Assembly (NCBI GenBank): GCA_041663045.1
Contig: JBAZRH010000001.1
Location: 212,403 to 276,402, forward strand
Origin: Minisyncoccota bacterium
GTDB lineage: Bacteria > Patescibacteriota > Minisyncoccia > Phycocordibacterales > GWA1-40-21
Direction: 5' to 3'
DNA: 64,000 bases
Position 1 is the stretch's first letter; every line of letters begins with the position of its first letter. The position numbers were made by a program, and so were the translations under genes. The notes under the pieces are model-generated. The model had not been told where the DNA came from, made no database searches, and was given only the letters and a program-made list of their open reading frames with translations. This document shows positions 7,583-48,610 of this stretch, piece by piece.

Positions 7583-8341
7583 TTGATGGCAAATTCTACT
7601 ACAGGGTGCTATAATCTTTCTCATATGAATTTAAAAAATATTTTTCGTAGGACAAATGGAAAAACAAAAGAGGCCCAAGGTGATGCCCCTATTACATTAA
7701 AACAGGTTGAGAAAATAATATCAAAGAGGACTATGGTAGCAGACGACGAGTTTGCCCGTGGATATGATTTGATAAAAAAATACCCTAGATCGGTGAGTAT
7801 TTTAGGTTCCGCTAAATTCAAAGCGGATAATAAATATTACCAACAAGCCGTGTCTCTAGCTGGAAGGATCGCCCACGAGCTCGGATATGCAGTGGTGACA
7901 GGTGGAGGACCGGGAATAATGGAGGCTGCAAATAAAGGTGCTTATGAAGCCGGCGGTGTATCACTTGGTTTTGCTATTAAACTTCCAAATGAACAGTCTG
8001 TAAACAAATATCTTACCGAATATGTGCAGTTTGAATATTTTTTTAGCAGAAAGACACTCCTCTTTTTCTCTGCAGAAAGTTATGTTTATTTCCCAGGTGG
8101 ATTCGGGACAATAGATGAATTCTTTGAAATAGTCACTCTTGTAGAGACCAACAAAATACCACGTGTTCCGGTAATACTTGTCGGCAGAGAATTCTGGGAA
8201 CCTCTTTTGAAATTGATAAAGGATAAACTATATGAAGAATTTCACACCATAAAGACAGGAGATTTGGATATTTATAAAATAGTAGACAGTGAAGACGAGA
8301 TTATTCAGATCATCAAAAACGCACCTTTTAGGACAGAGTAA
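7583..8341 (+). CDS. LOG-family (TIGR00730) Rossmann-fold protein / cytokinin riboside 5'-monophosphate phosphoribohydrolase-like
   Basis: GGGPGIMEAANKGA and PGGFGTIDEFFE motifs. The true start may be the internal ATG near 7625. Confidence 0.8.
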   Translation: MMANSTTGCYNLSHMNLKNIFRRTNGKTKEAQGDAPITLKQVEKIISKRTMVADDEFARGYDLIKKYPRSVSILGSAKFKADNKYYQQAVSLAGRIAHELGYAVVTGGGPGIMEAANKGAYEAGGVSLGFAIKLPNEQSVNKYLTEYVQFEYFFSRKTLLFFSAESYVYFPGGFGTIDEFFEIVTLVETNKIPRVPVILVGREFWEPLLKLIKDKLYEEFHTIKTGDLDIYKIVDSEDEIIQIIKNAPFRTE

Positions 8342-27883: not shown

Positions 27884-29275
27884 TTAATTTAATTTCTTCA
27901 CCACCCCTCTCTCCGCATCCACTTCCACCAAGTCACCGTCACGCAGCACTCTTGTGCCTATTCTAGTGCCAACAATACATGGGATGCCCAGTTCCCTTGC
28001 TACTATCGCCGCGTGACAAGTTAAGCCCCCTTCATCTGTAATTATTGCTTTTGCCAATTTCATTATAGGCAAGAAATCTGGTCGTGTCATCTCTGCAACA
28101 ATGATATTTCCACTTTCAAATTTACTAAATTCATTTGAACCGATTATTATTGATACATTGCCTTTAGCAAAACCCCTTGCAGCGGGGGTACCAGAAAATG
28201 TTTTAATATCTTTATCAACCTTGATTTTTTCTTCAACAAACACACCTTCTCTATACGATATTTCACTATTATTCCATAGGCATGTAACATACTCTCTCTT
28301 TTCAATTCTATTAGTTGTCTCCTCGGGACTACTAATTAAATCTCCGTATTCATCCCAAAAGAGTCTATCGGCGATATTCACATCAATCTTTAGTCTACTA
28401 CATGCCTCATCTAAGAAACGGTACATTGTATAATTGCCAATCAAATTTAGTTTTTTCCTTTGATCTCTAATGACCTCAGATATTTTTAATAGTTCCAAAA
28501 TACCTATCTCTTCTTGGTTTAGTTCGAGATTGTTTAAATTAAATCCAGTCTTATCTCTGTTTGTATGCGTCGCACCTTTAAATTTTGTCTGTATCTTATC
28601 AGGTGTCATTTTTCCACTATATTTATATGAAGCATCAATATAGAAAAATAACTTATAATAATCTTCAATCAGCTCAGCACGTTTAGATTCATCTTTCTCT
28701 TCCCTTATTCTTAAAAGAAGTCTCTCATTTTCAATCATGAAACTCGTATATGGAGAATTTAAATGATTTTCAATAATTTCATTGGTATTTTTATATCTCT
28801 TAGCAAGAACCTTATGTAGGTATTCAGAAATCACTCCATCATAGACGAAAGTTATCGCCCCTGGGGCATACTTTTCTATATAGACTTTCATAAAATTAAA
28901 GTACTCTGAGACTAATTCCTTAGCATTCATCTTACCCATTCTCTGTATATCAAGTAGAGCTGTTTTTCTTAGAGATTCCGAGTCTTGTATAATTGAATTT
29001 TTTATTTCATCAAAATAATTCAAATTTTCTGGCTTACTAACAAATTTCGCGACGGATGCACACTCAGTCTTTATATGTTCATCTATTATCCATTCATCGG
29101 CCTTTTCTTTTAAAACATTAATAGTATTAGCATAAAAACCTATTTTAAATTTATTTATATAATCAGCACATCTTACGACTTCTGGTAAGACTGATACAGC
29201 AAATACTGAAGCAGCCATACCCGAAACCTTGTCTGCTATATAATAACCAGTCTTTATGTTTTTATTTATAGCCAT
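27884..29275 (-). CDS. PEP-utilising-enzyme mobile domain protein, paralog B
   Basis: 463 aa. C-terminal GTPAARGFAKGNVSII...GGLTCHAAIVARELGIPCIVGT...DGDLVEVDAERGVVKKLN. Confidence 0.7.
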   Translation of the reverse strand: MAINKNIKTGYYIADKVSGMAASVFAVSVLPEVVRCADYINKFKIGFYANTINVLKEKADEWIIDEHIKTECASVAKFVSKPENLNYFDEIKNSIIQDSESLRKTALLDIQRMGKMNAKELVSEYFNFMKVYIEKYAPGAITFVYDGVISEYLHKVLAKRYKNTNEIIENHLNSPYTSFMIENERLLLRIREEKDESKRAELIEDYYKLFFYIDASYKYSGKMTPDKIQTKFKGATHTNRDKTGFNLNNLELNQEEIGILELLKISEVIRDQRKKLNLIGNYTMYRFLDEACSRLKIDVNIADRLFWDEYGDLISSPEETTNRIEKREYVTCLWNNSEISYREGVFVEEKIKVDKDIKTFSGTPAARGFAKGNVSIIIGSNEFSKFESGNIIVAEMTRPDFLPIMKLAKAIITDEGGLTCHAAIVARELGIPCIVGTRIGTRVLRDGDLVEVDAERGVVKKLN

Positions 29276-30340
29276 CTATTTTAATTTCTTCACCACCCCC
29301 CTCTCCGCATCCACCTCCACCATATCTCCGTCTTTGAAGACTTGAGTGGCGATTTTGGTGCCGATTACGCAGGGTATTTTGAATTCTCGCGACATTATGG
29401 CGGCATGGGAAATTATACCACCCTCGTCTGTTACTATAGCTCCGGCTTTTCTAATCGCTATCATCAGGTCTGGCGTAGTTGAGCTAGAGAGTAAGACATT
29501 TCCTTCTTCAAACTTTTTCGCTTCCTCTTTCGTAAATACAATAGATACCTTGCCACGATATATTCCTTTGTATGCTATTTGCCCTTTAACAAGATTATCT
29601 GCACCTAGATGATCATCTAGCTTGGGTGTTACAAGTTCAATCCCTGTATTTTCAAGAATTTCTTTTATAGATTTTCCGGTATAAAGATGTCCGTCGGCGA
29701 AATAAAATTCTTTATATCTAATTTTTAACTCTTCTTCATCTGGAATATTCCCATTTATAATTTCGTGTAAAGTTACCATATCCGCATATTTACCAAGATT
29801 TGGATATAAAGAAAGGATTGTTGAGCGGACAATGTGATCCAAGGCGGGTGCAAACTTATCCGTCCTTTTCCTAAATTCCATCAATTTATCCAGAAGATCT
29901 GGATGTAGATTTTTCTGCTCAAACATTTCAACTGTCCACCAAAGACCTGCATACCAAGCCCAAGAATATTTGGCATCAGATATAAATTTCTCGAAATAAT
30001 CCTTAGAGACAGGCTCGCCTTTATCAAAAATAGCACCGACTTTTGCATAAGCTTTCTCGTTTTCTGCCAGCATATTTTGTACGTATGAATTGTCTGCTTT
30101 TATTTTCTTAAGGATTTCCCCTTTCTGCCACTCAACTTGTTGACTATCAATATACAAACTACCTTTTCCCGCTTTTCTCTCAGCCACAAAATAAGGCTTT
30201 TTTAAGATGATATTATCAAGATACGGCAAAGGACCGGTCTCGGTATCCAATCCGATTTCATACAATGCTAATGTAAAATCACGATGTCCAAATAATTCTA
30301 ATTTTCTTTTTTGTTTGGAAGTCATAAAAGTTTTATTCAT
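29276..30340 (-). CDS. PEP-utilising-enzyme mobile domain protein, paralog C
   Basis: 354 aa. C-terminal GQIAYKGIYRGKVSIV...GGIISHAAIMSREFKIPCVIGT...DGDMVEVDAERGVVKKLK. Confidence 0.7.
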   Translation of the reverse strand: MNKTFMTSKQKRKLELFGHRDFTLALYEIGLDTETGPLPYLDNIILKKPYFVAERKAGKGSLYIDSQQVEWQKGEILKKIKADNSYVQNMLAENEKAYAKVGAIFDKGEPVSKDYFEKFISDAKYSWAWYAGLWWTVEMFEQKNLHPDLLDKLMEFRKRTDKFAPALDHIVRSTILSLYPNLGKYADMVTLHEIINGNIPDEEELKIRYKEFYFADGHLYTGKSIKEILENTGIELVTPKLDDHLGADNLVKGQIAYKGIYRGKVSIVFTKEEAKKFEEGNVLLSSSTTPDLMIAIRKAGAIVTDEGGIISHAAIMSREFKIPCVIGTKIATQVFKDGDMVEVDAERGVVKKLK

Positions 30341-32038: not shown

Positions 32039-33319
32039 CTATAAAAGATTACAATTACTGAGATTAACAAAATCAAATCCTTCTTCTATAATTCCACTAA
32101 AATTGATTCGGGCTTTTGCACCCTTTATAATAATTAATTCATTAAATTGTGGATTAAATGTACAAAGAAGAAAGACTTTACTTTCTATATCTTTACTTAT
32201 AAAAACACGGTAGCCAGAGTTCGTTTCGTAAGGTTCCTTAATATCAAAAATATAACCGGTATCGTAGACCTCTGTTCCAGATATTGAATTAATAAAGTTC
32301 GACTTTTCTAAAGATGTAGAAAATTGCCTCAGTTTTCCTACTAAATCAAAGGCTGATTGTTTAGTAGAGGTTGAATTAGGATAAATTCGATTTTCTATAT
32401 TTTGATTGTCAGTGGATATATCTTTATTGATTTCTAAACTTGATATTTTATAGTTCACAGGACCAAGGGAGATACTATCTGGTTTGATTCCAAATATAAG
32501 ATATAAAAGAAAAAGTATTATAGGAATAACTATCATCATAAAGATTCCTTTATCTCTTGAAAAATGAAAAATAAATTTATTGTTTTTATCGACATTTACT
32601 TTAGATATTTTATCTGCAACGGCTTTATTATCTTCTTTCTCTCTTACTTTGACTTCTTTATTCGTTGATAATAAGACGCAATGATCCAGGCACACAAGAC
32701 TGTCAGTCACATTACGTATTTCGCCTTCAGTGGTTATGGTATCTCCAATTATTAATAAAGATACTTCTGGTATAGCTGGTAAATCAAAATTCAAGGCAAT
32801 ATTAACGTTATCATGATCTTTTATATAAAAAGAAACGTAATCACTCATAACTGAATCTCCAGAAATTATTTTCCCTGTGACTTTTATGTGGTGTCCACTG
32901 AAACTTGTCTTTAAAACATTTTTTTTCAATGCAAGAGGGGTAATCTTGATTAAATCAGTCATACGTTTTGGAGAAAAATCTCTTACAAACACTCCTTTTA
33001 TTGTTCCTTCTAATGTATTTTCTTTCAAATAATCTTCAAATAATACAAGGAACGGTTCGAAGTAGTCCCAAGCACTAACCCCTGTTGATGTTCTATAACT
33101 AGTAGCGAAATCATGTTGATCTACATGTACAGAGACGTGGTTATATTTCTTATCAAATTTTCTAAGTTTTAGAATCCAATTCTCACTTTTATAAGTATTT
33201 CTACTTACAAAATTAAGTATCTTGTTGGTCAGACCCATTAATTCATCAAAAGTCAGTAAGCCATCTTTGATTGCTTGCTTCTTACTATTAATTTCTTCGA
33301 TTAATTCATTGTTATTCAT
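32039..33319 (-). CDS. Hypothetical protein with a single internal TM helix
   Basis: 426 aa. Cytoplasmic N-domain of about 235 aa, TM segment FMMIVIPIILFLLYLIFGI, and a C-domain of about 170 aa. No recognisable motifs. Confidence 0.5.
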   Translation of the reverse strand: MNNNELIEEINSKKQAIKDGLLTFDELMGLTNKILNFVSRNTYKSENWILKLRKFDKKYNHVSVHVDQHDFATSYRTSTGVSAWDYFEPFLVLFEDYLKENTLEGTIKGVFVRDFSPKRMTDLIKITPLALKKNVLKTSFSGHHIKVTGKIISGDSVMSDYVSFYIKDHDNVNIALNFDLPAIPEVSLLIIGDTITTEGEIRNVTDSLVCLDHCVLLSTNKEVKVREKEDNKAVADKISKVNVDKNNKFIFHFSRDKGIFMMIVIPIILFLLYLIFGIKPDSISLGPVNYKISSLEINKDISTDNQNIENRIYPNSTSTKQSAFDLVGKLRQFSTSLEKSNFINSISGTEVYDTGYIFDIKEPYETNSGYRVFISKDIESKVFLLCTFNPQFNELIIIKGAKARINFSGIIEEGFDFVNLSNCNLL

Positions 33320-33423
33320 AAATTTTTACGCGACTCGAGCTGGAACTGTTGTCGGTTAAGCCCTGTAAGGCTTTTCTACTATTTCCATCCTAACATTTTG
33401 ACCATACTCAGACAGTATATAAA

Positions 33424-34218
33424 TTACTTGTTTCTATCTATCATGCGCAACTGTGCAACCAAAGTGTCTAAAAACCACAAAGCATCACGTTCTGTGGGAG
33501 TCGCGGAGTTTCCGGCATGACGAGCACCCGATGCATCTGAGGCAAATTGGTTAAGAGCTTCAAGTACTTTTTTCTGTTCCTTATGTATTTTATCTTGCTT
33601 TTCGAACTCCTTTATTGCATCACCAAATCTTGAAGCACCTGAATTTGCTTTCATATATCCTTCTGCAGCAACAAAAATATCTTTTACAATATCTTCCGGT
33701 TTCGATTTTCGTCCCATCAGATTTCCGACAGCTTGAAAAAATCTATCACAAAATTCTGGGTATGGAGCTAGGATAGATTTAGTAGAGTCAATTTTTTCTG
33801 CGCTGTCTTTATCAACAATAAGCACAACTCGCCCCTCTTTGTTAATTTCATATACAGAACCGGAAAGATTAAAAGCTTTGTAAGTTTCAACAATGACTTG
33901 AGGTCGTCTTGTGTAATATAACTCCTTGCTTAAATCTAAGAATATTTCTACAACAGTAAAGACTTCGTGAAATTTGCCTGTCTGAATAATATCAAGGGGA
34001 TTTTTGTTAGGAAATTCCTGATGAGTTTTGTATGTGAAATCATCCGGTTCTATTGACCACTGGTTATCATTACCGAGAGATACATTTCCGCCCACGAATT
34101 TTTCGACGATAACTAACAAACGATCACGAAGAGACTTGGAAACGTCTTCGTGTCCAGAGTATTCAACGACATATTCATTTCTTCTTGAGAAATAGGCCAT
34201 GTTAATTAGATTATTCAA
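33424..34218 (-). CDS. Hypothetical protein (possible stand-alone defence/Abi-like protein; unassigned)
   Basis: 264 aa, soluble, no recognisable catalytic motif. C-terminal SGARHAGNSATPTERDALWFLDTLV. Confidence 0.45.
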   Translation of the reverse strand: MNNLINMAYFSRRNEYVVEYSGHEDVSKSLRDRLLVIVEKFVGGNVSLGNDNQWSIEPDDFTYKTHQEFPNKNPLDIIQTGKFHEVFTVVEIFLDLSKELYYTRRPQVIVETYKAFNLSGSVYEINKEGRVVLIVDKDSAEKIDSTKSILAPYPEFCDRFFQAVGNLMGRKSKPEDIVKDIFVAAEGYMKANSGASRFGDAIKEFEKQDKIHKEQKKVLEALNQFASDASGARHAGNSATPTERDALWFLDTLVAQLRMIDRNK

Positions 34219-34449
34219 AACTATTCGGATTCCGATCTATGCTCTTGTTGGTTGAGGAACAGGGAATCTCTCCTTCGCCTCTCAGTTCGCCGTCGCTCAT
34301 TTCGGGCTGGGCACCAGCTCACGACTTCGCCTGCTGGCTCAGTATCGTTCCGCTGTTCTCGTCCCTGACGCAAGAGAAGTAGTTCTCTTGCTTCCCCCAG
34401 CAAAGCATTAATCTGAGGAAAGCTCCGCTTACTATTTAAATCTGCTTTG

Positions 34450-34520
34450 CTGGGGGACAGGGACTCGAACCCCGATACTCAGGACCAAAACCTGATGTCC
34501 TACCATTAGACGATCCCCCA
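34450..34520 (-). tRNA. tRNA-Gln (anticodon UUG)
   Basis: The minus strand reads TGGGGGATCGTCTAATGGTAGGACATCAGGTTTTGGTCCTGAGTATCGGGGTTCGAGTCCCTGTCCCCCAG. 7-bp acceptor stem, anticodon loop tTTTGGt, T-loop GTTCGAGTC. No encoded CCA. Confidence 0.85.
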
Positions 34521-34711: not shown

Positions 34712-35764
34712 TTACCCTGTCAATTTTGCCAAAGCAAGCTCCAAAGGTAATTCCGGAATATACGCTTTTGCTGTCATATCATAATATCCGAGAAGGGCGA
34801 GTAAGGTGTCAGAATTGATTTTTGATGGTTTTCTTCCAGCCCGTCCGTCAGGATTAGGGTCGGCGAGAGATTTGAGGAATTTGAAATCGGTGTCGGTCAT
34901 TTCATCTTGTAGCTTCCATTCCGAGCCTTTCAGGTTTCGCAAGAGCAAAATAGAACGCATTTTGTGAAGGACAAGTTTGAAATACAAAAGCATATCTATA
35001 TTTGATTCTCTGGCCTTTGAAATCGCCGAAAGACCAAGCTCAAGATCGCCAGCATCTATGGCACGGATAAAATCATTGACCACCTCCGCTTTTGGCGCAC
35101 CTGTCACAAGCTCCACCTCTTCAGCAGAAATCTTTTTGTCTTTTGAAGCACTTATCACCTTTTGCAAAATACTTTGTGCGTCACGGAAAGAGCCGTCGCC
35201 AAGAAGAGCGATAAGGTCGGCAGATGAGGATTCTAGCGTATAGCCCTCCTTTTTTGCCATTACTACCACCAAATCTTTGAGAATCTTTTGCGTCGGTTTT
35301 TTAAATGAAAATGTCTGGCATCGGGAAATGATAGTCTCCGGAATTTTTTGATATTCTGTCGTGGCGAAAATAAAAATAACATGCTTTGGTGGCTCCTCGA
35401 TAGTCTTCAAAAGTGCATTCCAAGCGGACTTTGAAAGCATATGTGCCTCGTCTAAAATATAAACTTTATATTTTGATTCAAAAGGAAGTGTGTTTACAGA
35501 TTCATTGAGCGCACGGATATCATCTACGCCAGTATTTGAAGCAGCATCTATTTCTGTAATATCATTTGTGCTCGTGCCGATTTCTCTAGCAAAAATCCTT
35601 GCAACGCTTGTCTTGCCCGTCCCCCTTGAACCGGAAAAAATGTAGGCGTGGGCAATATGCCCAAGCTTGATAGAAGATTCCAAAACCTTCACAATATGAT
35701 CCTGCCCTAGGACCTCGCTAAATTTCTGCGGACGATATTTTCTGTATAAAGCTGTTTCGTGCAT
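34712..35764 (-). CDS. dnaX: DNA polymerase III subunit gamma/tau (short form)
   Basis: YRKYRPQKFSEVLGQDHI, GSRGTGKTS Walker A, DEAHML Walker B, and a SRC-like motif. Start chosen at MHETALYRKYRP; the ORF continues to 35815. Confidence 0.85.
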   Translation of the reverse strand: MHETALYRKYRPQKFSEVLGQDHIVKVLESSIKLGHIAHAYIFSGSRGTGKTSVARIFAREIGTSTNDITEIDAASNTGVDDIRALNESVNTLPFESKYKVYILDEAHMLSKSAWNALLKTIEEPPKHVIFIFATTEYQKIPETIISRCQTFSFKKPTQKILKDLVVVMAKKEGYTLESSSADLIALLGDGSFRDAQSILQKVISASKDKKISAEEVELVTGAPKAEVVNDFIRAIDAGDLELGLSAISKARESNIDMLLYFKLVLHKMRSILLLRNLKGSEWKLQDEMTDTDFKFLKSLADPNPDGRAGRKPSKINSDTLLALLGYYDMTAKAYIPELPLELALAKLTG

Positions 35765-35815
35765 AGGGAGATTATAACAGATTATTTTAATAATAAAAAA
35801 GGGAGAGAAGATCAC

Positions 35816-37759
35816 ATGGACCTACCCTCCCTTACATGGTGACAACAAACCTGCTGTCTTAGGAGAAAGATTTACCGTGCCCTCTCCTCATGGACACTTT
35901 ATTACGGCAGCAATGTCACACGAACGGCTAAGTTCATATGATTCCTCCCTTCACTCAGTCTCGCCGGTTTGATCACGCCGTGAGCGAGGCGCGCGCATAG
36001 TCGGGGTTATGGTCGATACCAGACACCGGACCAGCACGAGGGGCCATATGTGTTTTCATTTTACTGTCCTTTCTTGACCTTTTGGGTCGGACCGAATCCA
36101 TTTCCGTGGCATCCACGGCTATGAATTATGCCATATCAGAATAGTCCTTTCATTAGACTAAGTCAATTAATTTATGTTTATAAAATAAAAATCCACCCCA
36201 GCACTTGCCAGGGCGGATCGCATAGATCGCGCCGTCATTTCTATTCGGCCTAACGATCACTGCTATCGCCGAGCCTGTATTCAAACGGCCCAGCTATCGG
36301 ACTGTAATGAATCTTCATACGAGAGCCTCCTTCTGTGTGATTCACCATCATCCATCCAACACCAAAAGAACAGAGCGAATTCAATTGTATAATTAAAATA
36401 CCGCTTAATCAAAAACAAAAAGTGGATAATTAAAAAGGAGGCGTCCAGTGTTGTGCAAGTATCAGTTGCAGCATACACATAAACGCCCCTCAAGGACGAG
36501 CACATCTTATTTCGCCAACCCTCATCCGGCTGCATCAGCGAAACCAGGTGATTTTATTGTTCTTCCCAATCATCATTCACCATAATGATTGGGTATAGAG
36601 ACGAGGTCTCTAACAAGCAGGCTCATCTCGGGCCGCAGACTTGTTCAAACGAGGAGACGCAACACAACCATAAAGAACCTCCTAAGACACGTTACTCCAT
36701 CTCAGACCACCAATGCCAAGCACTAGTTATCAAATCTGAGAAGGTGAAGATCTCACGTTTCGCTCCAGATATATTTCACCCTGGAACTCTCGAGAGACCA
36801 GTACATCCGCTGATTCACAAACTTGCGCAAACGATTTACGTAAGGTAGCGAATCTGTCCGTAAACAACCCGCGCAAACCGCGAATCAGTTACTTACGAGT
36901 ACCTCCGTTCCAACCATTTCCTTAGAGTTACCGCTCCAAAGAATGATTTACCCGTCCCAAGTGTGAATTAAACATCGGCTATTCGCCTGACGAGTTTCAT
37001 ACCGAGACGAGATAGTAAAGATTCTATTCCTATCGAAGGGATGCGTCAATAGGCAATATATTTGAAAAGTTTATAAAAATTCTTGAAAATAAGAAAACCG
37101 CCCAACTACTACCACTTGTAGTCGGACGGTCAAGACTGCGTAAACAATTATTTTTTTCAAGAAAGACCAAACTCTAAAGCTGTGGTGAACTTCAGAGCAC
37201 GCCCACACCTCGGAAGTTTGAAGCCGAGGTGTGTTTTTGATTAAAGGCGCATTTTTTTCTTTTTTTCGCATCCACTAACCCAAAACGTTTTCTGAATTAA
37301 CATACTTACGATTTGGGTACCAAGTCTTTATTCTCCTTTCCTAATTCCTGTGATTCAGTAGGCCGCGGCCGATGTTCGGCTACAGCATGCTGGAGGCGCC
37401 GATGGCGATTTTTGATAATTTTTGACTATGACGACTCGCCAACCGCGGAGGACTTGTCGTATGCATGTTTTTGCCTTTCTCTTTTTTGACCGTTTTCAGG
37501 ATGGTCTTCCTTTTCTGTAGGGCGCCACATAGACGTCGCAGAAATTTATTTAAAGAACTAAATTGGTGGATTGCTAAGCACTAGTTTCAAGCGCAGGGTT
37601 TTTCCTATTCCTATGTTAGGTGTAGGTGAATGCCACAAGACACTCTTCCCTATACCGGCCTGAAGATTTCACCAAGCAACCCGAGGGTGAGTATAGCATA
37701 CCTAGCTTAAAAGTCAAGTGTTTTAGCCACTTTCTTTTTATATATGCAGAAATACGGCT
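35816..37759. other. ORF-poor region of about 1.9 kb with elevated GC and several terminator-like hairpins
   Basis: Only 60-90 aa ORFs with no recognisable products. GC is visibly above the flanking genes. Intrinsic-terminator-like hairpins at about 37215-37250 and 37408-37425. Confidence 0.5.
37215..37250 (+). terminator. Rho-independent terminator-like hairpin inside the ORF-poor region
   Basis: cacacctcgg-aagtttgaag-ccgaggtgtg followed by TTTTT. Confidence 0.6.
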
Positions 37760-38947
37760 CTATTTAGCCATATTATTAAATACCTTAATTATTTCAGCTA
37801 CTTCTTTTGAACTATTCGTTGCCATAAGTTTGACCCTCAACTCTTTTGCCCCATCAAAACCGGAAACATAGGCTTTGAAATGCTTTTTCATTACATCAAA
37901 TCGCTTGTGGTGAAGCATGGTTTTTTCAAAAAGTTTGGTGTGTTCTAAAAGCGCCTTTAATTTTTGTTCAACAGATATACCAGAATCATCCCGTACAATT
38001 TTAGGGGAATATCTGTTTGTCTTTAAATCAATATCACAGTGTCTTATTGTTTTCTTATTTTCAACTTTATCCTGTCGTGCAAATTTAACGGGACGCTCAA
38101 TTCGACTACCACGATAAGAATCGCGGGTCGAATTGGCGAATAACCACGGATTGCCGAAAATTCCCCTACCGATCATTATTCCATCAAAGCCAGATTCTCT
38201 GGCGAGTTCTCTTCCCTGCTTCAGGGAAATTACATCACCATTGCCTATCAATACCAGCTCCGGCTTTTGCTTCCGCACAAAATCCACAATCTCTTTTGCC
38301 AATTCCCAATGTGCAGGCACATCTGAAAGTTCTTTTCTTGTGCGGAGGTGTATTGTGAGAGCTGAAATATCTTCTTTCAGAATTTCAGTGAGCCACTCTT
38401 TGTATTCTATTTTATTAAAGCCGATTCTTGTCTTCACAGAAACTGGGATTTTGCCCGCACCTTTTATTGCTGAACGTATCACTTCCCTTGCAATCGCCGG
38501 ACTTTTCATCATTGCCGAGCCGGCACCCTGCTTTTCTACTTTTCTGTCTGGGCATCCCATATTTATATCAATGCCGTCAAAGCCGAGTTTGGAAATAAGC
38601 TTGCATGCGATTTCAATATTCTCAGGTTTGCTTCCAAAAATCTGTGCCACTATCGGTTTTTCGCCTTTCGAGAATTTCAAATCATTCAAAAGTCGCTTCC
38701 TACCTTTTTCTGAAGCAAGTCCGTCTGCCGAAACAAATTCAGTCCAAAAGACATCCGGCCCACCTGTGCCCGACACTCCGTGTTTAGGACGCCCAATACC
38801 GTGCTTGCTGTATTTTGCGATTATTTTCCTAAAGGGCGCATCTGTAACATCTGCCATCGGCGCCAAGCAGAAAAATGGTTTCTTTTTCGAAGCGATTTTT
38901 TGCCAAAAATTTTTCATTACTTCCGAGAATAACATTTTCGGTGTCAT
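37760..38947 (-). CDS. tRNA-dihydrouridine synthase (Dus family)
   Basis: 395 aa. FCLAPMADVTDAPFR N-terminus and a TIM-barrel FMN site (catalytic Cys in NMGCP). C-terminal helical extension. Confidence 0.85.
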   Translation of the reverse strand: MTPKMLFSEVMKNFWQKIASKKKPFFCLAPMADVTDAPFRKIIAKYSKHGIGRPKHGVSGTGGPDVFWTEFVSADGLASEKGRKRLLNDLKFSKGEKPIVAQIFGSKPENIEIACKLISKLGFDGIDINMGCPDRKVEKQGAGSAMMKSPAIAREVIRSAIKGAGKIPVSVKTRIGFNKIEYKEWLTEILKEDISALTIHLRTRKELSDVPAHWELAKEIVDFVRKQKPELVLIGNGDVISLKQGRELARESGFDGIMIGRGIFGNPWLFANSTRDSYRGSRIERPVKFARQDKVENKKTIRHCDIDLKTNRYSPKIVRDDSGISVEQKLKALLEHTKLFEKTMLHHKRFDVMKKHFKAYVSGFDGAKELRVKLMATNSSKEVAEIIKVFNNMAK

Positions 38948-41554: not shown

Positions 41555-41776
41555 TTATTTATCTAAACTTATAATTTTCCCCGGGGAGTGATGACCGCTC
41601 ACTATCCTTACATCACCATTATACACTTTAAAGTGTTCTCGAACTAGTTCTAAAATACGACCGTTTGCAAGTCCACGCTCGGCCGGCTCTTTGACCGACA
41701 CATCGAAATGATCTTCAGACTTTTTTACAAATCTTTCCTTTTTTGCCCCCGCTTGAGCTTTTACTTTTATATACAT
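41555..41776 (-). CDS. DUF167 (YggU-like) protein
   Basis: 73 aa. VKAQAGAKKERF...VKEPAERGLANGRILELVREHFKV matches the YggU pattern. Confidence 0.55.
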   Translation of the reverse strand: MYIKVKAQAGAKKERFVKKSEDHFDVSVKEPAERGLANGRILELVREHFKVYNGDVRIVSGHHSPGKIISLDK

Positions 41777-42076
41777 AAATAGATTTTACTATACTTTATA
41801 CAAAACAAAAATAGACTGAGCATACTTCCCTTTTCTCATTTCTTCTGCTAATATAATGCCCAGTTCTTTCAAGAAAATTCCGATTAAGTATTTCCCGAGT
41901 AGCAAGCGGTGAAGTGAGTGTTGGGTTGGGACCCGACACGCAAGACTTTTTTAGATAGTTTGGAGCATAGCGACAAAATATCAAAAAAGTGGACAGCTCC
42001 TGTAAGGAGGTTGCCTGTTTTGGCAACTGCACCGATATAGCTACTTTGTAAAATATTTTTTATGGAAAAATATTAT

Positions 42077-42148
42077 TCCGGAGTAGCTCAGCGGTAGAGC
42101 AGTTGCCTGTTAAGCAATTGGTCGCAGGTTCGATCCCTGCCTCCGGAG
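42077..42148 (+). tRNA. tRNA-Asn (anticodon GUU)
   Basis: TCCGGAGTAGCTCAGCGGTAGAGCAGTTGCCTGTTAAGCAATTGGTCGCAGGTTCGATCCCTGCCTCCGGAG. 7-bp acceptor stem, anticodon loop cTGTTaa, T-loop GTTCGATCC. No encoded CCA. Confidence 0.9.
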
Positions 42149-42221
42149 CAAATTAAAAACGCCACCCCTGTGTGGTGTTTTTCAATTTGCGACGGAGAGA
42201 AAGCTCTGGGAGAGCTTTCGT

Positions 42222-42319
42222 GCAGGGATCGAAAGATTTTCTATGTTTGCGAAAATCTCTATTTGAGCAAACCAGAAAATCACGCGCTGTAGGCGAGATA
42301 CCCCTGCCTCCGTAGCAAC
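42222..42319. repeat. Partial copies of the tRNA-Asn 3' end downstream of the gene (one inverted T-arm copy, one direct acceptor copy)
   Basis: cagggatcgaa at 42224-42234 is the reverse complement of ttcgatccctg in the T-arm. ccctgcctccgtagca at 42303-42318 directly repeats the 3' end ccctgcctccggagca with one mismatch. Confidence 0.6.
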
Positions 42320-42394
42320 TTGATAGTTATTATTTAATATGTTATTATGTAGAAGGAGTGAAATTAATGTTTAATAGATAAAGGAGATTAGTGT

Positions 42395-42658
42395 ATGTTC
42401 ACGAAGATTACCGTCAACGCCAATGCTGAGCGAGCACTGCTCGACCTACAGCAAAAACTCAAGGATGGAATCAGTATTAACAATCGCGCGGTACCAGACT
42501 TGCCCTGTATAGGATGTGACCGTGTGGATGAACGATTCGTGCAGACCGTTGGTGCACATCAATCCCACTGTGCTTGGAATCACATGTTCCATTGCAATCA
42601 GTGCGGTTATGATAGCAATCTAGCCAAGTACTTGGGTCTCGACTGTAACTGTAAGTAA
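42395..42658 (+). CDS. Small Cys/His-rich protein (putative metal-binding peptide) in a GC-elevated islet
   Basis: AAAGGAG sits 8 nt upstream of the ATG. 87 aa. N-terminal helical part, then CIGCDRV...HQSHCAWNHMFHCNQCGYD...DCNCK, with 8 Cys and 5 His in 50 aa. Confidence 0.5.
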   Translation: MFTKITVNANAERALLDLQQKLKDGISINNRAVPDLPCIGCDRVDERFVQTVGAHQSHCAWNHMFHCNQCGYDSNLAKYLGLDCNCK

Positions 42659-42797
42659 ACCCAAATATCTGGTCAAAAACATTTGCCACATGATTCTAGG
42701 CTGGAATCATGTGGTATTTTTTATATTTAACAGACAGTATTTATAATCTTGAGGGTATCTGTATATACAAATGATATATGTTTGATATAATTTTGGA

Positions 42798-45696: not shown

Positions 45697-46317
45697 ATGA
45701 AGATGAAAAGGACTGCATTACTGTCAGTATTCGACAAGACTGGTATTGTCGAGTTCGGACGCGACCTAAATAATCTCGGCTTCGATATTCTTGCCTCAGG
45801 CGGAACAGCTCGGGCTTTGACTGAAGCTGGTATCGAAGTCACTGATGTGGCTACAATTGTCGGTGAGCCGATTCTTGGTCACCGAGTTGTTACACTGTCG
45901 CGCCAGATCCACGCTGCCCTGCTTGCCCAAGACAATGAAGAAGACAGGGCAGAACTGGCAAGGATCGGTATTCCTAAGATCGATCTCGTATACGTGAACA
46001 TGTATCCGCTGGAAGCAGAAGTGGCAAAAGATGGACACACGCTCCAGAGCGTTATCGAGAAGACCGACATCGGCGGACCGACCATGTTACGTTCGGCAGC
46101 CAAGGGACGCCGTATTGTCATGTGCCACCCCGATCAAATTCCTTCAGTTCTGGCAACGATAAAGGAACAGGACTTCATGAACGGCGGCAAGATGTGCGAG
46201 TCGTTCCTTTCCACGCTTGTAAGCATCGCGGAACGGACGGTCAGTGCATACTGTCTCTGCTCGGCGGATTTCCATGCGGAGGTCGCACGGAATCTCGAAT
46301 TTGTCGAGAAAGATTGA
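45697..46317 (+). pseudogene. purH: Fragment of purH (IMP cyclohydrolase MGS-like domain only), catalytic motifs degenerate, GC-rich
   Basis: ALLSVFDKTGIVEFGRDL...SGGTARAL...YVNMYPL...DIGGPTMLRSAAKG is collinear with the PurH N-terminus. The conserved GRVKTLHPKIHGG reads GHRVVTLSRQIHAA. The ORF ends after about 200 aa with no AICAR-transformylase domain. Confidence 0.6.
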
Positions 46318-46438
46318 TCGGCTTCGTCATAGTTGAATCGCCAAGGATTGTATCCTTGGCGATTTTTTTATACTTTACTTTTTGTCATAAAAGTATAGTA
46401 TCAGAAATAGAAATTTACTCGTTTGAGTATACTGTTCC

Positions 46439-48610
46439 TTGACAAGAACAGAGCAGATAGGAAACAAAAATAAACAGAAAGTAGAGGTAGAGAAAATGAT
46501 AGCAAAATTAGTTAGGAACTTCGGTCTATACGAAGTCTGTTTCTACATTGAAATGATTTCGGAAATGACCCTGGCAGAACTTCAAAAACTCCGCTGGGTA
46601 ATTGCCGAGACCTTCGAACCATTGCTTACGGGAGATCGTCATTCCTATAGCGAAGGTTCGTTTGTGGAAATTGGTCCGCGTCTCAACGTGGAAACACCTT
46701 TTTCAACCAATGCTGTGGCAATTTGCCATGCAATGGGTTTGGACAAGGTGGTTCGGATTGAACAGTCGAAAATATACAAACTGGATGGAGCCACGCGTGA
46801 AGAAATTCTCGCACAACATTTGGATCAGATGACGTAAGTTGTCTATCCACCTGGTGGTATCTCCAGTTTCAGTCTTGATTCGATCACAGCAGAAGTGCAG
46901 ATCATCCCAGTTCTTGAACAGGGAGAAGATGCACTACGAGCAGCGAACAAATTGCTCGGCCTCGGCATGGACAGTTGGGATATCACCTACTATACGGAAC
47001 TTTTCCGCAAGTATGGGAGAAATCCAACCGACGTGGAGCTATTCCAAATCGGTAATGCCAACAGCGAGCATTGTCGTCACTGGTACTTCAAAGGGAAGAT
47101 GGTGATCGACGGCGTGGAAATGCCGGAGTGTTTGCTCGATATCGTTCGGGCGCCGCTTCTTGCAGTTTCTGGCTTAAATGTCAGCATGCTCGCATTCAAC
47201 GATAACGTTGGTGCCTTGTATGGTCATCGGGTGCAGTTTTTTGTACCAGCAAATCCCGGGCAACCCTCGGAATTTAAGTCGGTACAGAGAACACTTCATC
47301 CGACAGCGACTGCGGAAACGCATAATCATCCGACACTCATCGCCCCCTATCCAGGAGCGGCGACGAAAATCGGTGGTCGTATCCGTGATACCTGCGCCGG
47401 CGGACGTGGATCGCTCATCGGGTTTGGAACAGCGGGATATTGCGTCGGTAATCTGTTCCTTCCTGGCGATTACAAAATCCCTGGTGAGGTCATTGGTGGC
47501 GAGGTAAGCAATAAGCATGCAACGCCACTTCGAATTCTCCTTGAAGGAAGTAACGGAGACTTCGACTACGGAAATCAATTCGGTGAGCCGACAATTGGTG
47601 GCTTTACCAGAACCTTTTGCCAGATAGTTAGTGGCGAAAGGCGCGAGTTCCGTAAGCCGATCTTTTACGGCGGCGGAGTTGGTCACATTGAGGACAAGCA
47701 CACGAAAAAGCAGACCCCTGAAAAAGGAATGCTTATCGTGGCTATCGGTGGGCCGGCCTATGATATTGGTTTTGGCGGTGGGGCCGCATCGAGTATGGCA
47801 CAAGGTCAAAATGACGCCGGGCTTGATTTCAAATCAGTTCAGCGTGGTAACGGCGAGATGGGCAATAAAGCTGTTCGCGTCATTCGAGCGTGCGTGGAGA
47901 TGGGAGACAAAAATCCTATTGAAGCAATTCACGATCAAGGCGCGGGCGGTCCAAGCAATGTCATAACCGAACTCGTCGAGATTATTGGCGGACGGGCAGA
48001 CATTCGACAGATTCGTCTTGGCGACAAGACGATGGCCGTCATCTCCATCTGGAGTGCTGAATATCAGGAGCGCTATGGCTTCCTGATCAAGCCGGACTGT
48101 CGGAAGCTGTTCGAGGATATTTGCGCTCGTGAACGGGTGAACTGCGAAATACTGGGAGAGATTACTGGCGATGGGTACATCACGGTGATTGACTCAGCAA
48201 AAAACACGACACCTGTTCATCTCAATCTGCGAGATATCTTGGGCAAGTTGCCGCAGAAGACGTTCAAGTCCGATCACAAGCCGATGGATCTCAAACCACT
48301 AGAATTACCCGACGATTTGTCGTTCAACGACGCGGCAGAAATTGTCCTGAAGCAGGTATCTGTCGGATCGAAGGGTTTCCTGGTACGGAAAGTGGATCGG
48401 AGCGTCGGTGGACGCGTGGTGCAACAACAGTGTTGTGGCGCAAGTCAGGTGCCGATCGGAAATGTTCAAGTCTTGGCTGGCGGACCGGATGGAAATAATC
48501 CTACATTATTGAATCAGAGATTGCATCAGCTTCTAATGATAACCGTCTGTATTATACTACCTTCATTTGCATTGAGTGTTGCAGGCAAATACTTGAACGA
48601 TAAGTCTTAG
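46439..48610 (+). pseudogene. purL: Disrupted large-type purL (FGAM synthetase): N-terminal roughly 700 aa in two frames, C-terminus replaced
   Basis: 46439-46837 encodes a PurL N-domain (ETPFSTNAVAICHAMGLDKVVRIE). 46895-48540 contains NSEHCRH and AETHNHP motifs. A frame break lies between 46837 and 46895. The last about 23 aa (ILPSFALSVAGKYLNDKS) match the C-terminus of the small membrane protein at 50428-50613. Confidence 0.7.

What the first reader, a model, noticed from the sequence alone, without database searches (positions are those of the whole stretch)
35816..37759. 1.9-kb GC-elevated, ORF-poor block between dnaX and the dus gene
In an otherwise tightly packed, AT-rich stretch this block has no ORF over about 90 aa and no recognisable protein in any frame. 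Its GC is visibly higher than the flanks. It contains several intrinsic-terminator-like hairpins (for example cacacctcgg...ccgaggtgtg+T5 at 37215-37250 and cgccgatggcg+T5 near 37410).

It could encode one or more large structured RNAs. It could also be the decayed remnant of horizontally acquired DNA. I looked for conserved 16S/23S/5S, RNase P, tmRNA and SRP motifs and found none. A CUGACGAG hammerhead-like core near 36976 lacked the required helices.
Basis: seen in the sequence. Interest (0 to 1): 0.55.

Follow-up and report, generated by a model that had tools for sequence, protein, structure and literature searches.

The report
Tandem micro-gene and structured-RNA cassettes
The apparently empty 1.9-kb stretch between dus and dnaX in this uncultivated Paceibacterota genome is a row of four or five tiny genes that gene callers miss: a roughly 0.6-kb folded RNA not found in Rfam, plus short messages encoding conserved 11- to 28-residue peptides of unknown function.

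Summary
The block has no long ORF: the longest stop-free run is 98 aa, against 101±21 in shuffles. It has no Pfam, Rfam, phage or plasmid match, and no hit among 5.8 billion proteins. GC is 44.4%, against 37.8% for the window but 41-42% for the two flanking genes. An independent assembly (L174) carries the identical sequence.

It is neither one large RNA nor dead foreign DNA. On the minus strand, co-directional with dus and dnaX, sigma-70-like promoters and intrinsic terminators delimit units A, B, B2 and C.
- **Unit B** (about 585 nt) has a 140-nt core conserved in four species. About 93% of pair cells are canonical, and 18-22 pairs show compensatory changes, against 8-9 in shuffles. A covariance model recovered a held-out species at 83 bits.
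- **Units A and C** carry micro-ORFs of 28, 28 and 11 aa. They are conserved at peptide level, often through different codons.
- **Unit B2** always carries a Shine-Dalgarno (SD)-led 10-22-aa ORF.

Every genus relative sampled has an ORF-free dus-dnaX gap of 0.26-3.6 kb with different cassette content. Distant relatives have dus abutting dnaX.

Function is unknown. I read it as a fast-turnover array of small accessory genes. Interest is moderate.

The parts
37686..37717 (-). Unit A promoter: -35 TTGACT (37717-37712), 16-nt spacer, TG-extended -10 TATACT (37695-37690). Predicted transcription start about 37683.
   Evidence: (10 of 12 matches, with TG) and for coordinates. The same promoter sequence lies just downstream of dus in L002, L091, L093 and L176.
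37380..37466 (-). Micro-ORF A, 28 aa: MHTTSPPRLASRHSQKLSKIAIGASSML. It belongs to a PP...IGA peptide family.
   Evidence: Homologues sit at the same locus in L175 (30 aa), L176 (40 aa), L088 (28 aa) and L089 (24 aa). Against L088, 12 of 25 aligned residues are identical, 7 of them through different codons.
37086..37240 (-). Unit A 3' region: three hairpins (37233-37204, 37198-37171, 37131-37096) and a U-tract ending at 37086. The last hairpin is the intrinsic terminator. The first also reads as a plus-strand terminator.
   Evidence: 14-bp terminator stem; fold z-scores -4.9 to -5.6.
37015..37049 (-). Unit B promoter: TTGACG, 17-nt spacer, TAGAAT. Predicted start about 37014.
   Evidence: It aligns with TTGACC-17-TACAAT in L086, L170 and L176.
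36432..37014 (-). Unit B: structured non-coding RNA of about 585 nt. It has 5' hairpin H1, a covarying core, variable hairpins, and a terminator (stem 36491-36437, U-tract 36436-36432).
   Evidence: Fold z-scores are -6.5 (window, B plus B2), -7.85 (L086) and -5.1 (L170). Homology to L086, L170 and L176 by nhmmer.
36810..36949 (-). Covarying core of RNA B. Helix H2 has a conserved C(U)GGUAA loop. A long bent helix H3 encloses the invariant CGCUACCU motif.
   Evidence: 45 pairs, 93% canonical. 22 pairs (three sequences) or 18 pairs (four sequences) have changes on both sides, against 9.1±2.3 and 8.2±1.9 in shuffles (0 of 500 shuffles reach the observed value). Slid controls give 1-7. Covariance model R1 scores 98.5 bits here and 83 bits on L176, which was not used to build it.
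36180..36412 (-). Unit B2: promoter-like TTGATT-17-TACAAT (36412-36384), SD GAAGGAGG, micro-ORF 36318-36250 (22 aa, MKIHYSPIAGPFEYRLGDSSDR), terminator 36219-36190 and a U-tract.
   Evidence: An SD-led 10-18-aa ORF follows RNA B in L086, L170 and L176 as well. Peptide similarity is weak.
36131..36166 (-). Unit C promoter: TTGACT, 17-nt spacer, TATTCT.
   Evidence: The same hexamers and spacing occur in L172 at 7871-7899 and 8247-8274.
35973..36059 (-). Micro-ORF C1, 28 aa: MKTHMAPRAGPVSGIDHNPDYARASLTA.
   Evidence: The L172 homologue is MKMQTAPRGSPVVAQNHMTDTTARASHQHTMRI. 13 of 28 residues are identical, 6 of them through different codons.
35902..35937 (-). Micro-ORF C2, 11 aa, ending Pro-stop: MNLAVRVTLLP. 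Its SD is AAGGGAGG.
   Evidence: The L172 homologue MVKSIRVSFIP has the same length, and Arg-Val at codons 6-7 and the terminal Pro are identical, with like-for-like changes at most other positions.
35795..35897 (-). Unit C 3' region. Possible pseudoknot or alternative hairpins (GUGUCC/GGGCAC and AGGAGA/UCUCCU around the conserved GGGCACGGUAA), then terminator 35833-35803 with U-tract to 35797.
   Evidence: Alignment with L172 and coordinates. The pairing scheme was read from the sequence and not tested statistically.
35762..35779 (-). dnaX promoter and start: TG-extended -10 TGTTATAAT ending 6 nt before ATG 35764. This implies a leaderless dnaX mRNA.
   Evidence: The same arrangement appears in relatives. 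107 nt here are 95% identical to L170.

Best explanation
The block is a tandem array of four or five short, separately transcribed cassettes. All lie on the minus strand, the same direction as dus and dnaX. Each starts at a near-consensus sigma-70-type promoter and ends at an intrinsic terminator.

- **Cassette A** (about 37683-37086) is a 0.6-kb mRNA for a 28-aa peptide of a conserved 'PP...IGA' family.
- **Cassette B** (about 37014-36432) is a 0.58-kb structured non-coding RNA. Its 140-nt core is conserved by compensatory base changes.
- **Cassette B2** (about 36377-36180) follows B in all four species sampled that carry B. It carries an SD-led 10-22-aa ORF.
- **Cassette C** (about 36131-35797) is a bicistronic mini-mRNA for a 28-aa and an 11-aa peptide, followed by a conserved structured tail.

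Gene callers miss these genes because every ORF is under 30 codons. GC is raised because the RNAs are helix-rich and the peptides are rich in Ala, Pro, Gly and Arg.

Shown here:
- the boundaries of the units;
- homology of A, B, B2 and C to units at the same locus in related species;
- RNA covariation in B;
- peptide-level conservation in A, C1 and C2.

Inferred: that the units are transcribed and translated as drawn, and that they are accessory genes. The accessory reading rests on the locus keeping its character across the genus (an ORF-free, co-directional array of promoters and terminators) while its cassette content turns over quickly.

Function is not established. My working model is that the cassettes make lineage-specific micro-proteins together with a regulatory or scaffold RNA. 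B and B2 would form a linked pair in which read-through of B's terminator, or pairing of its U-rich tail with the B2 ribosome-binding site, sets B2 expression.

The confidence given (0.62) is for the cassette-array architecture, with one structured RNA and translated micro-ORFs. For the specific B-B2 coupling model I would give about 0.25.
For: - **Unit boundaries.** There are 12 promoter-like sites against 5.7±2.7 expected, and 6 terminator-like sites against 2.1±1.5. The four best-placed promoters and the two strongest terminators are on the minus strand at regular intervals. The minus strand folds better than shuffles across 35740-37420, while the flanking coding DNA gives z near 0.
- **Synteny.** dus then dnaX is conserved across the family. 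Distant relatives have a 0-60 nt gap. Every relative with at least 74% DnaX identity for which both genes are on the contig has a gap of 260-1223 nt (1921 nt in L172, where the gap was measured from the gene calls), with no stop-free run longer than 149 aa. Several of these gaps are GC-elevated. L002 adds at least 3.6 kb of ORF-free DNA upstream of dnaX, with dus off the contig.
- **RNA B.** Homologues occur in L086, L170 and L176. The covariance model gives 83 bits on the held-out L176 and no hit in 88 other loci. Whole-unit fold z-scores are -5.1 to -7.9.
- **Micro-ORFs.** They have strong SDs at correct spacing. Family A is found in five species with invariant PP and I.A. A and C1 keep identical residues through different codons, 7 of 12 and 6 of 13. 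C2 keeps its length and its Pro-stop.
- **Orientation in relatives.** All 9 promoter-like sites in the L172 gap, and the best ones in L002, are in the sense orientation.
- **Independent assembly.** L174 is identical across the block.
Against: - There are no expression data. Promoters, terminators and start codons are consensus matches only.
- The B covariation rests on 3-4 sequences, and the alignment was made by hand or fitted to the model. That favours the structure, although RNAalifold found the same fold on its own.
- B2 peptides are poorly conserved: 5 of 18 residues identical. Only the window has a decent B2 promoter, so B2 may not be an independent unit.
- The SD of micro-ORF A is weak in the window.
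- Computed SD accessibility shows no consistent sequestration.
- Within the window, SD-plus-start sites are no commoner on the minus strand (5) than on the plus strand (6).
- Peptide HMMs found no members beyond those used to build them. The families are therefore tiny, and chance resemblance cannot be fully excluded for the more distant pairs (L089, L002).
Confidence: 0.62

Rival explanations
1. Purely non-coding. The whole block encodes structured small or large RNAs, and the short ORFs are incidental, for example purine-rich stretches and AUGs inside helices.
For: Fold z-scores are negative on the minus strand over most of the block. RNA B is clearly structured. B2 peptides are barely conserved. 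Unit C has conserved hairpins after C2.
Against: In A and C1, identical residues are encoded by different codons. C2 keeps exactly 11 codons and Pro-stop across very different nucleotide sequence. The PP...IGA family is recognisable in L088 and L089, where nucleotide similarity is undetectable. The 5' half of unit A is not structured (z near 0).
Confidence: 0.13
2. Cis-regulatory leader region of dnaX. Leader peptides plus attenuator terminators in series would tune read-through into dnaX.
For: Tiny SD-led ORFs are followed by alternative hairpins and intrinsic terminators directly upstream of dnaX. C2 ends in Pro-stop, a known ribosome-pausing context (established knowledge of TnaC-type leaders). 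In L086 and L170 the B2 terminator abuts dnaX.
Against: dnaX has its own conserved TG-extended -10 only 6 nt from the ATG. Every cassette has its own promoter. Cassette content next to dnaX differs between species: C in the window, B2 in L170, and unrelated units, repeats or two 87-89-aa genes in L172 and L168. Distant relatives have no gap at all.
Confidence: 0.1
3. Small-toxin (type I toxin-antitoxin-like) cassettes. These would be short toxic peptides with structured mRNAs, controlled by antisense or neighbouring RNAs.
For: The cassettes are lineage-restricted, fast-evolving, tandem, carry their own promoter and terminator, have long structured UTRs, and sit in an intergenic hot spot next to defence-like genes (AbiJ-like at 33424-34218; HEPN, Fic and MazG-like genes in relatives). 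A plus-strand terminator-like hairpin (37204-37238) could end an antisense RNA opposite the 3' end of unit A.
Against: The peptides are hydrophilic. They have no hydrophobic run longer than 5 residues (8 in the doubtful L002 peptide), and the GRAVY hydropathy score is -1.1 to +0.3 for all peptides of 18 aa or more; only the two 11-aa C2 peptides score higher, about +1. No convincing antisense promoter exists; the only plus-strand site near unit A's 3' end, at 37062-37090, scores 9 of 12. No repeats or antitoxin-like complementarity were found.
Confidence: 0.08
4. Decayed remnant of horizontally acquired DNA or of ordinary genes (pseudogenes).
For: GC is above the genome mean. The locus is an insertion relative to distant relatives, and at this site other family members carry real inserted genes with stop-free runs of 190-551 aa.
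Against: No frame matches Pfam or any of 5.8e9 proteins. There is no phage or plasmid match, no flanking repeats or integrase, and no alternative genetic code. Homologous units in sister species show compensatory and synonymous change, so they are under selection.
Confidence: 0.04

Closest known systems
Unannotated bacterial small-protein (sORF) genes and dual small mRNAs
   Same: ORFs of 11-28 codons with canonical SD and their own promoter and terminator. They are missed by gene callers and have a narrow phylogenetic range.
   Different: Here several unrelated ones are strung together with a structured RNA at one conserved locus, and they turn over between species. The peptides match no described family.
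Large or ornate structured bacterial ncRNAs (OLE, ROOL, GOLLD, raiA; Rfam RF01071, RF03087, RF01998, RF03072)
   Same: RNA B is 0.3-0.6 kb and multi-helical. Its core is supported by covariation, it shows GNRA-type (GAAA) hairpin loops in the variable part, and it has its own promoter and terminator.
   Different: No Rfam model matches, even at E<=10. Only about 140-230 nt are conserved. It is known so far from four closely related species and is always followed by a micro-ORF.
SRP RNA gene (ffs/scr) upstream of dnaX in Bacillota
   Same: A position immediately upstream of dnaX on the same strand. This is from my own knowledge of the B. subtilis scr-dnaX arrangement.
   Different: There is no match to either bacterial SRP model and no domain IV motif.
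Type I toxin-antitoxin loci and tandem small-toxin arrays (ldr, ibs/sib, hok/sok, txpA/ratA)
   Same: Short ORFs, structured mRNAs, tandem and lineage-restricted cassettes in intergenic hot spots.
   Different: The peptides are not hydrophobic, and no antisense RNA gene is evident.
Leader-peptide transcription attenuators (trp, his, tnaC, erm leaders)
   Same: A tiny ORF, including one ending in Pro-stop, followed by competing hairpins and an intrinsic terminator.
   Different: Each unit has its own promoter, and the downstream gene (dnaX) has its own conserved promoter. The units are not conserved with dnaX across the family.

Membership tests
Any Rfam 15 RNA family (including SRP, RNase P, tmRNA, 6S, OLE, ROOL, GOLLD, raiA, hammerhead, group I/II introns) | Covariance-model score at or above the family's gathering threshold | tested here: not met
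   The window at gathering threshold gives only two tRNAs outside the block. The block at E<=10 gives four sub-threshold chance-level hits; the largest score is 25 bits against a gathering score of 65. The homologous regions of L086 and L172 also give nothing.
Structured non-coding RNA (generic) | Conserved secondary structure supported by compensatory substitutions in homologues | tested here: met
   RNA B core: 45 pairs, about 93% canonical, 18-22 pairs changed on both sides against 8-9 in shuffles (0 of 500), slid controls 1-7. The held-out L176 scores 83 bits. Caveat: only four sequences, and the alignment was fitted to the structure.
Protein-coding micro-ORF | SD at 5-10 nt, conserved reading frame and length, amino-acid conservation exceeding nucleotide conservation | tested here: met
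   A: five species, invariant PP and I.A, and 7 of 12 identical residues through different codons. C1: 6 of 13. C2: 11 codons and Pro-stop in both species. B2 is inconclusive (5 of 18 identical).
Protein-coding micro-ORF | Evidence of translation (ribosome footprints or peptide) | not testable with these tools
   No expression data are available.
Pseudogene or decayed gene remnant | Translated similarity to an intact protein family in some frame | tested here: not met
   Pfam on six frames gives 0 hits at E<=1. A six-frame query against 5.8e9 proteins gives 0 hits at E<=1e-3.
Integrated mobile element, prophage or plasmid fragment | Similarity to mobile-element DNA, an integrase, and flanking direct repeats | tested here: not met
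   No blastn hit in 50,697 phage or 72,556 plasmid records. No meaningful flanking repeats. No integrase ORF.
Type I toxin-antitoxin | Hydrophobic or transmembrane toxin peptide | tested here: not met
   Longest hydrophobic run is 2-5 residues (8 in the doubtful L002 peptide). The maximum 15-residue Kyte-Doolittle value is at most 0.6 for window peptides of 15 aa or more; the 11-aa C2 peptide averages 1.2 over its whole length.
Type I toxin-antitoxin | Overlapping or complementary antitoxin RNA gene | tested here: inconclusive
   A plus-strand terminator-like hairpin lies at 37204-37238, and only a weak plus-strand promoter (9 of 12) at 37062-37090. There are no expression data.
Leader-peptide attenuator of the downstream gene | A single promoter upstream of the leader, a terminator between leader and regulated gene, and co-conservation with that gene | tested here: not met
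   dnaX has its own conserved promoter 6 nt from its ATG. The cassette next to dnaX differs between species and is absent in distant relatives.

The most novel reading that the evidence does not exclude
RNA B may be the founding member of a new class of ornate structured RNA in Paceibacteria. It would work as an obligate pair with the micro-ORF that always follows it, as an RNA-peptide two-component module. The dus-dnaX gap would then be a dedicated hot spot where such RNA and micro-peptide cassettes are gained, lost and diversified quickly. That pace would fit genes involved in conflict with phages or with the host cell of these episymbionts.
Probability: 0.2. Interest if true: 0.65.

Novelty: new member of a known kind. 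Interest (0 to 1): 0.45.

Why it matters
Genomes of the Candidate Phyla Radiation are small and tightly packed, so a 2-kb gene-free stretch kept by every member of a genus needs explaining. This analysis shows the stretch is not empty. It holds a structured RNA not found in Rfam and at least three peptide families of under 30 residues that annotation pipelines cannot see.

If the cassettes are expressed, they give a concrete, testable entry point into two things that are almost unstudied in this radiation: small proteins and regulatory RNAs. They also illustrate how an ancestral two-gene junction became a hot spot for rapidly changing small genes.

The practical lesson for scans is that 'ORF-poor and GC-elevated' in an AT-rich genome can mean micro-genes as well as RNA.

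Tried and rejected
- **Known RNA families.** Rfam at gathering and at permissive thresholds, on the window and on relatives' gaps, gave nothing. tRNA/tmRNA scan: none in the block.
- **Alternative genetic codes** (TGA, TAG or TAA read as sense): no long ORF appears.
- **Pseudogene test** by Pfam and by a six-frame search of 5.8e9 proteins: negative.
- **Phage and plasmid DNA similarity:** none.
- **Repeats or element boundaries:** only short chance-level matches. No paralogues of the block elsewhere in the 64-kb window.
- **Wider membership of RNA B.**
  - An nhmmer profile (166 loci plus the window), a motif regex and covariance model R1 (96 sources in two searches) were tried.
  - Only the window, L174 (identical to the window), L086, L170 and L176 are hits. 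L171, the same sequence as L170, also matches the block by nhmmer.
- **Wider membership of the peptide families:** HMMs against 50,906 stop-free segments found no new members.
- **SD sequestration as a shared control mechanism:** computed accessibilities are inconsistent, so the idea was dropped as a claim.
- **Automatic alignment of RNA B.**
  - MAFFT mis-registers helices H2 and H3 by 1-2 columns.
  - It was replaced by a hand alignment checked with RNAalifold.
- **Resemblances considered by eye and not pursued.** Similarity of unit C to SRP or RNase P RNA, of CGCUACCUUA to the 16S 3' end, and of H2 to a tetraloop receptor. No model supports them.
- **Literature:** two full-text searches found nothing on such loci in Patescibacteria.
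Full report
**Setting.** The window comes from a Paceibacterota (Candidate Phyla Radiation) genome. The best DnaX matches are Paceibacterota MAGs. The flanking genes are confirmed as dnaX (DNA_pol3_delta2/AAA; 34712-35764, minus strand) and a dihydrouridine synthase (Dus; 37760-38947, minus strand). The listed dnaX ORF starts at GTG 35815. The conserved protein begins at ATG 35764, just 6 nt after a TG-extended -10 box (TGTTATAAT). Relatives show the same arrangement.

**Checking the observation.**
- Between 35816 and 37759 no stop-free segment exceeds 98 aa, exactly what shuffled sequence gives (101±21).
- No stop-codon reassignment opens an ORF.
- Six-frame translations hit nothing in Pfam and nothing among 5.8 billion proteins.
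- GC is 44.4%, against 37.8% for the window. The adjacent genes are 41-42%, so the rise over the immediate neighbours is only 2-4 points.
- Rfam finds nothing.
- A contig from an unrelated sequencing run (L174) is 100% identical across the block, so it is not a mis-assembly.

**Anatomy.** Base skews (C>G and A>T on the plus strand over 36200-37200) and fold z-scores both point to the minus strand. Flanking coding DNA gives z near 0; the block gives -1.8 to -6 on the minus strand between 35740 and 37420. Promoter-like and terminator-like sites are about twice as frequent as in shuffles. The best ones alternate on the minus strand:

| Unit | Promoter | Terminator |
|---|---|---|
| A | 37717-37690 | 37131-37096 |
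| B | 37049-37021 | stem 36491-36437, then a U-tract |
| B2 | 36412-36384 | 36219-36190 |
| C | 36166-36138 | 35833-35797 |

The dnaX promoter follows unit C. This gives units A (about 600 nt), B (about 585), B2 (about 200) and C (about 335). Their GC contents are 43.6, 46.6, 49.0 and 50.6%.

**Synteny.**
- dus followed by dnaX is conserved throughout the family.
- In relatives with about 50% DnaX identity the two genes usually abut (0-60 nt), or an ordinary gene has been inserted.
- Every relative with at least 74% DnaX identity that has both genes on the contig has a gap of 260-1223 nt (1921 nt in L172, where the gap was measured from the gene calls). No stop-free run in these gaps exceeds 149 aa, and GC is often raised. 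L002 adds at least 3.6 kb of ORF-free DNA upstream of dnaX, with dus off the contig.
- These gaps share almost no nucleotide similarity with each other or with the window.
- Their promoter-like sites are overwhelmingly co-directional with dus and dnaX: 9 of 9 in L172.

The locus type is therefore conserved, while its content turns over.

**Closer relatives.** Dus diverges faster than DnaX, so a Dus search was used to reach closer species. Those species share individual units with the window.
- L086 and L175, two contigs of one organism (93% DnaX identity), share units A, B and B2.
- L170 shares B and B2.
- L176 shares A, B and B2, in the same order as in the window.
- L172 carries unit C plus a weaker paralogue.

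The block is therefore ancestral to this species group. It is not a recent insertion.

**Unit B is a structured RNA.**
- Whole units fold far better than shuffles: z = -6.5 (window), -7.85 (L086) and -5.1 (L170).
- All share a 5' hairpin H1, a helix H2 capped by C(U)GGUAA, a GAA(A/C)GGA linker, and a long bent helix H3 enclosing the invariant CGCUACCU. Variable hairpins and a terminator with a U-rich tail follow.
- MAFFT mis-registers two helices. I aligned the core by hand around the invariant motifs, and RNAalifold then recovered the same fold.
- On that alignment 93% of cells are canonical pairs. 22 of 45 pairs changed on both sides, against 9.1±2.3 in shuffles (0 of 500) and 1-3 when partners are slid.
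- A covariance model built from the three sequences found L176, which was not used to build it, at 83 bits. It found nothing else credible in 92 sources.
- With four sequences the figures are 92.6% canonical pairs and 18 pairs changed on both sides, against 8.2±1.9.
- The sample is small and the alignment is fitted to the structure. That is why I put the claim at strong-but-provisional.

**Micro-ORFs.** Strong SDs at correct spacing precede several short ORFs on the minus strand.
- **Micro-ORF A** (37466-37380, MHTTSPPRLASRHSQKLSKIAIGASSML) has homologues in L175, L176, L088 and L089, with invariant Pro-Pro and Ile-x-Ala. Against L088 no nucleotide similarity was detectable, yet 12 of 25 residues are identical, 7 of them through different codons.
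- **C1** (36059-35973) shares 13 of 28 residues with L172, 6 through different codons.
- **C2** (35937-35902) is 11 codons ending Pro-stop in both species. A conserved element follows (GGGCACGGUAA) that can form two overlapping helices.
- **B2** always carries an SD-led ORF of 10-22 codons, but the peptide is poorly conserved.
- All these peptides are hydrophilic. None has relatives beyond these species in the data held.

**Interpretation.** The best-supported reading is a tandem array of small, separately transcribed cassettes: one structured RNA and three or four micro-ORF mRNAs. The array sits at a junction that became a hot spot for such genes in one Paceibacteria genus.

Function is unknown. 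B and B2 are linked in all four species. In three of them I see no good promoter between B's terminator and the B2 SD, so B may act as a long leader, or as a partner RNA for B2. Computed SD accessibility does not support a uniform sequestration mechanism.

**Rivals.**
- An all-RNA reading is contradicted by the synonymous-codon pattern.
- A dnaX leader or attenuator is contradicted by dnaX's own conserved promoter and by the differing cassette next to dnaX.
- Type I toxins are contradicted by the hydrophilic peptides.
- Decayed foreign DNA has no protein, phage or plasmid similarity and shows clear selection.

**Verdict.** The horizontal-transfer-remnant alternative is not supported. The find is a new structured RNA family plus new micro-peptide families, both of known kinds, in a lineage where neither has been studied. 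Interest is moderate. It would rise if the cassettes prove to be expressed and to act in host or phage interactions.

Noticed in passing
window 35762-35815: The mechanical dnaX ORF starts at GTG 35815, but homologues start at ATG 35764. A TG-extended -10 (TGTTATAAT) ends 6 nt before that ATG and no SD is present, so dnaX looks leaderless. The same arrangement is seen in all genus relatives inspected.
   Followed up: partly
window 45697-48610: This is the highest-GC stretch of the window (about 50.5% over 46.6-48.5 kb). It holds purine-synthesis pieces: an MGS-domain-only 206-aa ORF, and FGAR amidotransferase (PurL) split into 132-aa and 571-aa ORFs. It could be a fragmented or horizontally acquired pathway remnant in a lineage that usually lacks purine synthesis.
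   Followed up: partly
window 32039-34218, and downstream of dnaX in L082, L084, L085: The other side of dnaX is also variable. The window has an AbiJ_NTD4-like protein and an unknown 426-aa protein next to tRNA-Gln (34449-34520). Relatives carry HEPN_AbiU2, Fic, MazG-like, SLFN-like helicase, GIY-YIG and Hypoth_Ymh genes there. This looks like a defence or accessory island.
   Followed up: no
window 42395-42658 (+): An 87-aa Cys- and His-rich ORF with a good SD (AAAGGAG) lies in the second-largest 'ORF-free' gap (41559-42785), next to tRNA-Asn. A 4-codon SD-led ORF (MFNR) sits just upstream. Small genes seem to be missed generally in this genome.
   Followed up: partly
L002 1-3593: This relative (79% DnaX identity) has at least 3.6 kb without any ORF over 95 aa upstream of dnaX, and the contig ends inside it. 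It contains three tandem mini-ORFs about 100 nt apart (MNTPPNYSLFS, MNGPPSYLF, MMADPFSF) and a second copy of the 'post-dus' promoter at 2804-2831.
   Followed up: partly
L172 8562-8635: Three tandem copies of a 25-nt unit (GTACTCGACAGTACGATGAAGCATT, 95% matches) lie between the last cassette and dnaX.
   Followed up: no
Micro-ORFs in window, L002, L088, L089, L172, L175, L176: Many otherwise unrelated micro-ORFs at this locus begin M-x-(T)-x-x-(A/P)-P, giving a Pro-Pro or Ala-Pro at codons 4-11 (mostly 5-7). Examples are MHTTSPP, MTTAPP, MKTGPP, MTRAPP, MNTPP, MKTHMAP and MKMQTAP. Early Pro-Pro is an EF-P-dependent pause context, but whether that matters here is unknown.
   Followed up: no
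window 27884-30340 (-): Two adjacent paralogous ORFs (463 and 354 aa) share a C-terminal PEP-utilising-enzyme-like mobile-domain motif (GG..SHAAI..RE..IPC..GT) and an identical ending DAERGVVKKL. This looks like a tandem duplication.
   Followed up: no
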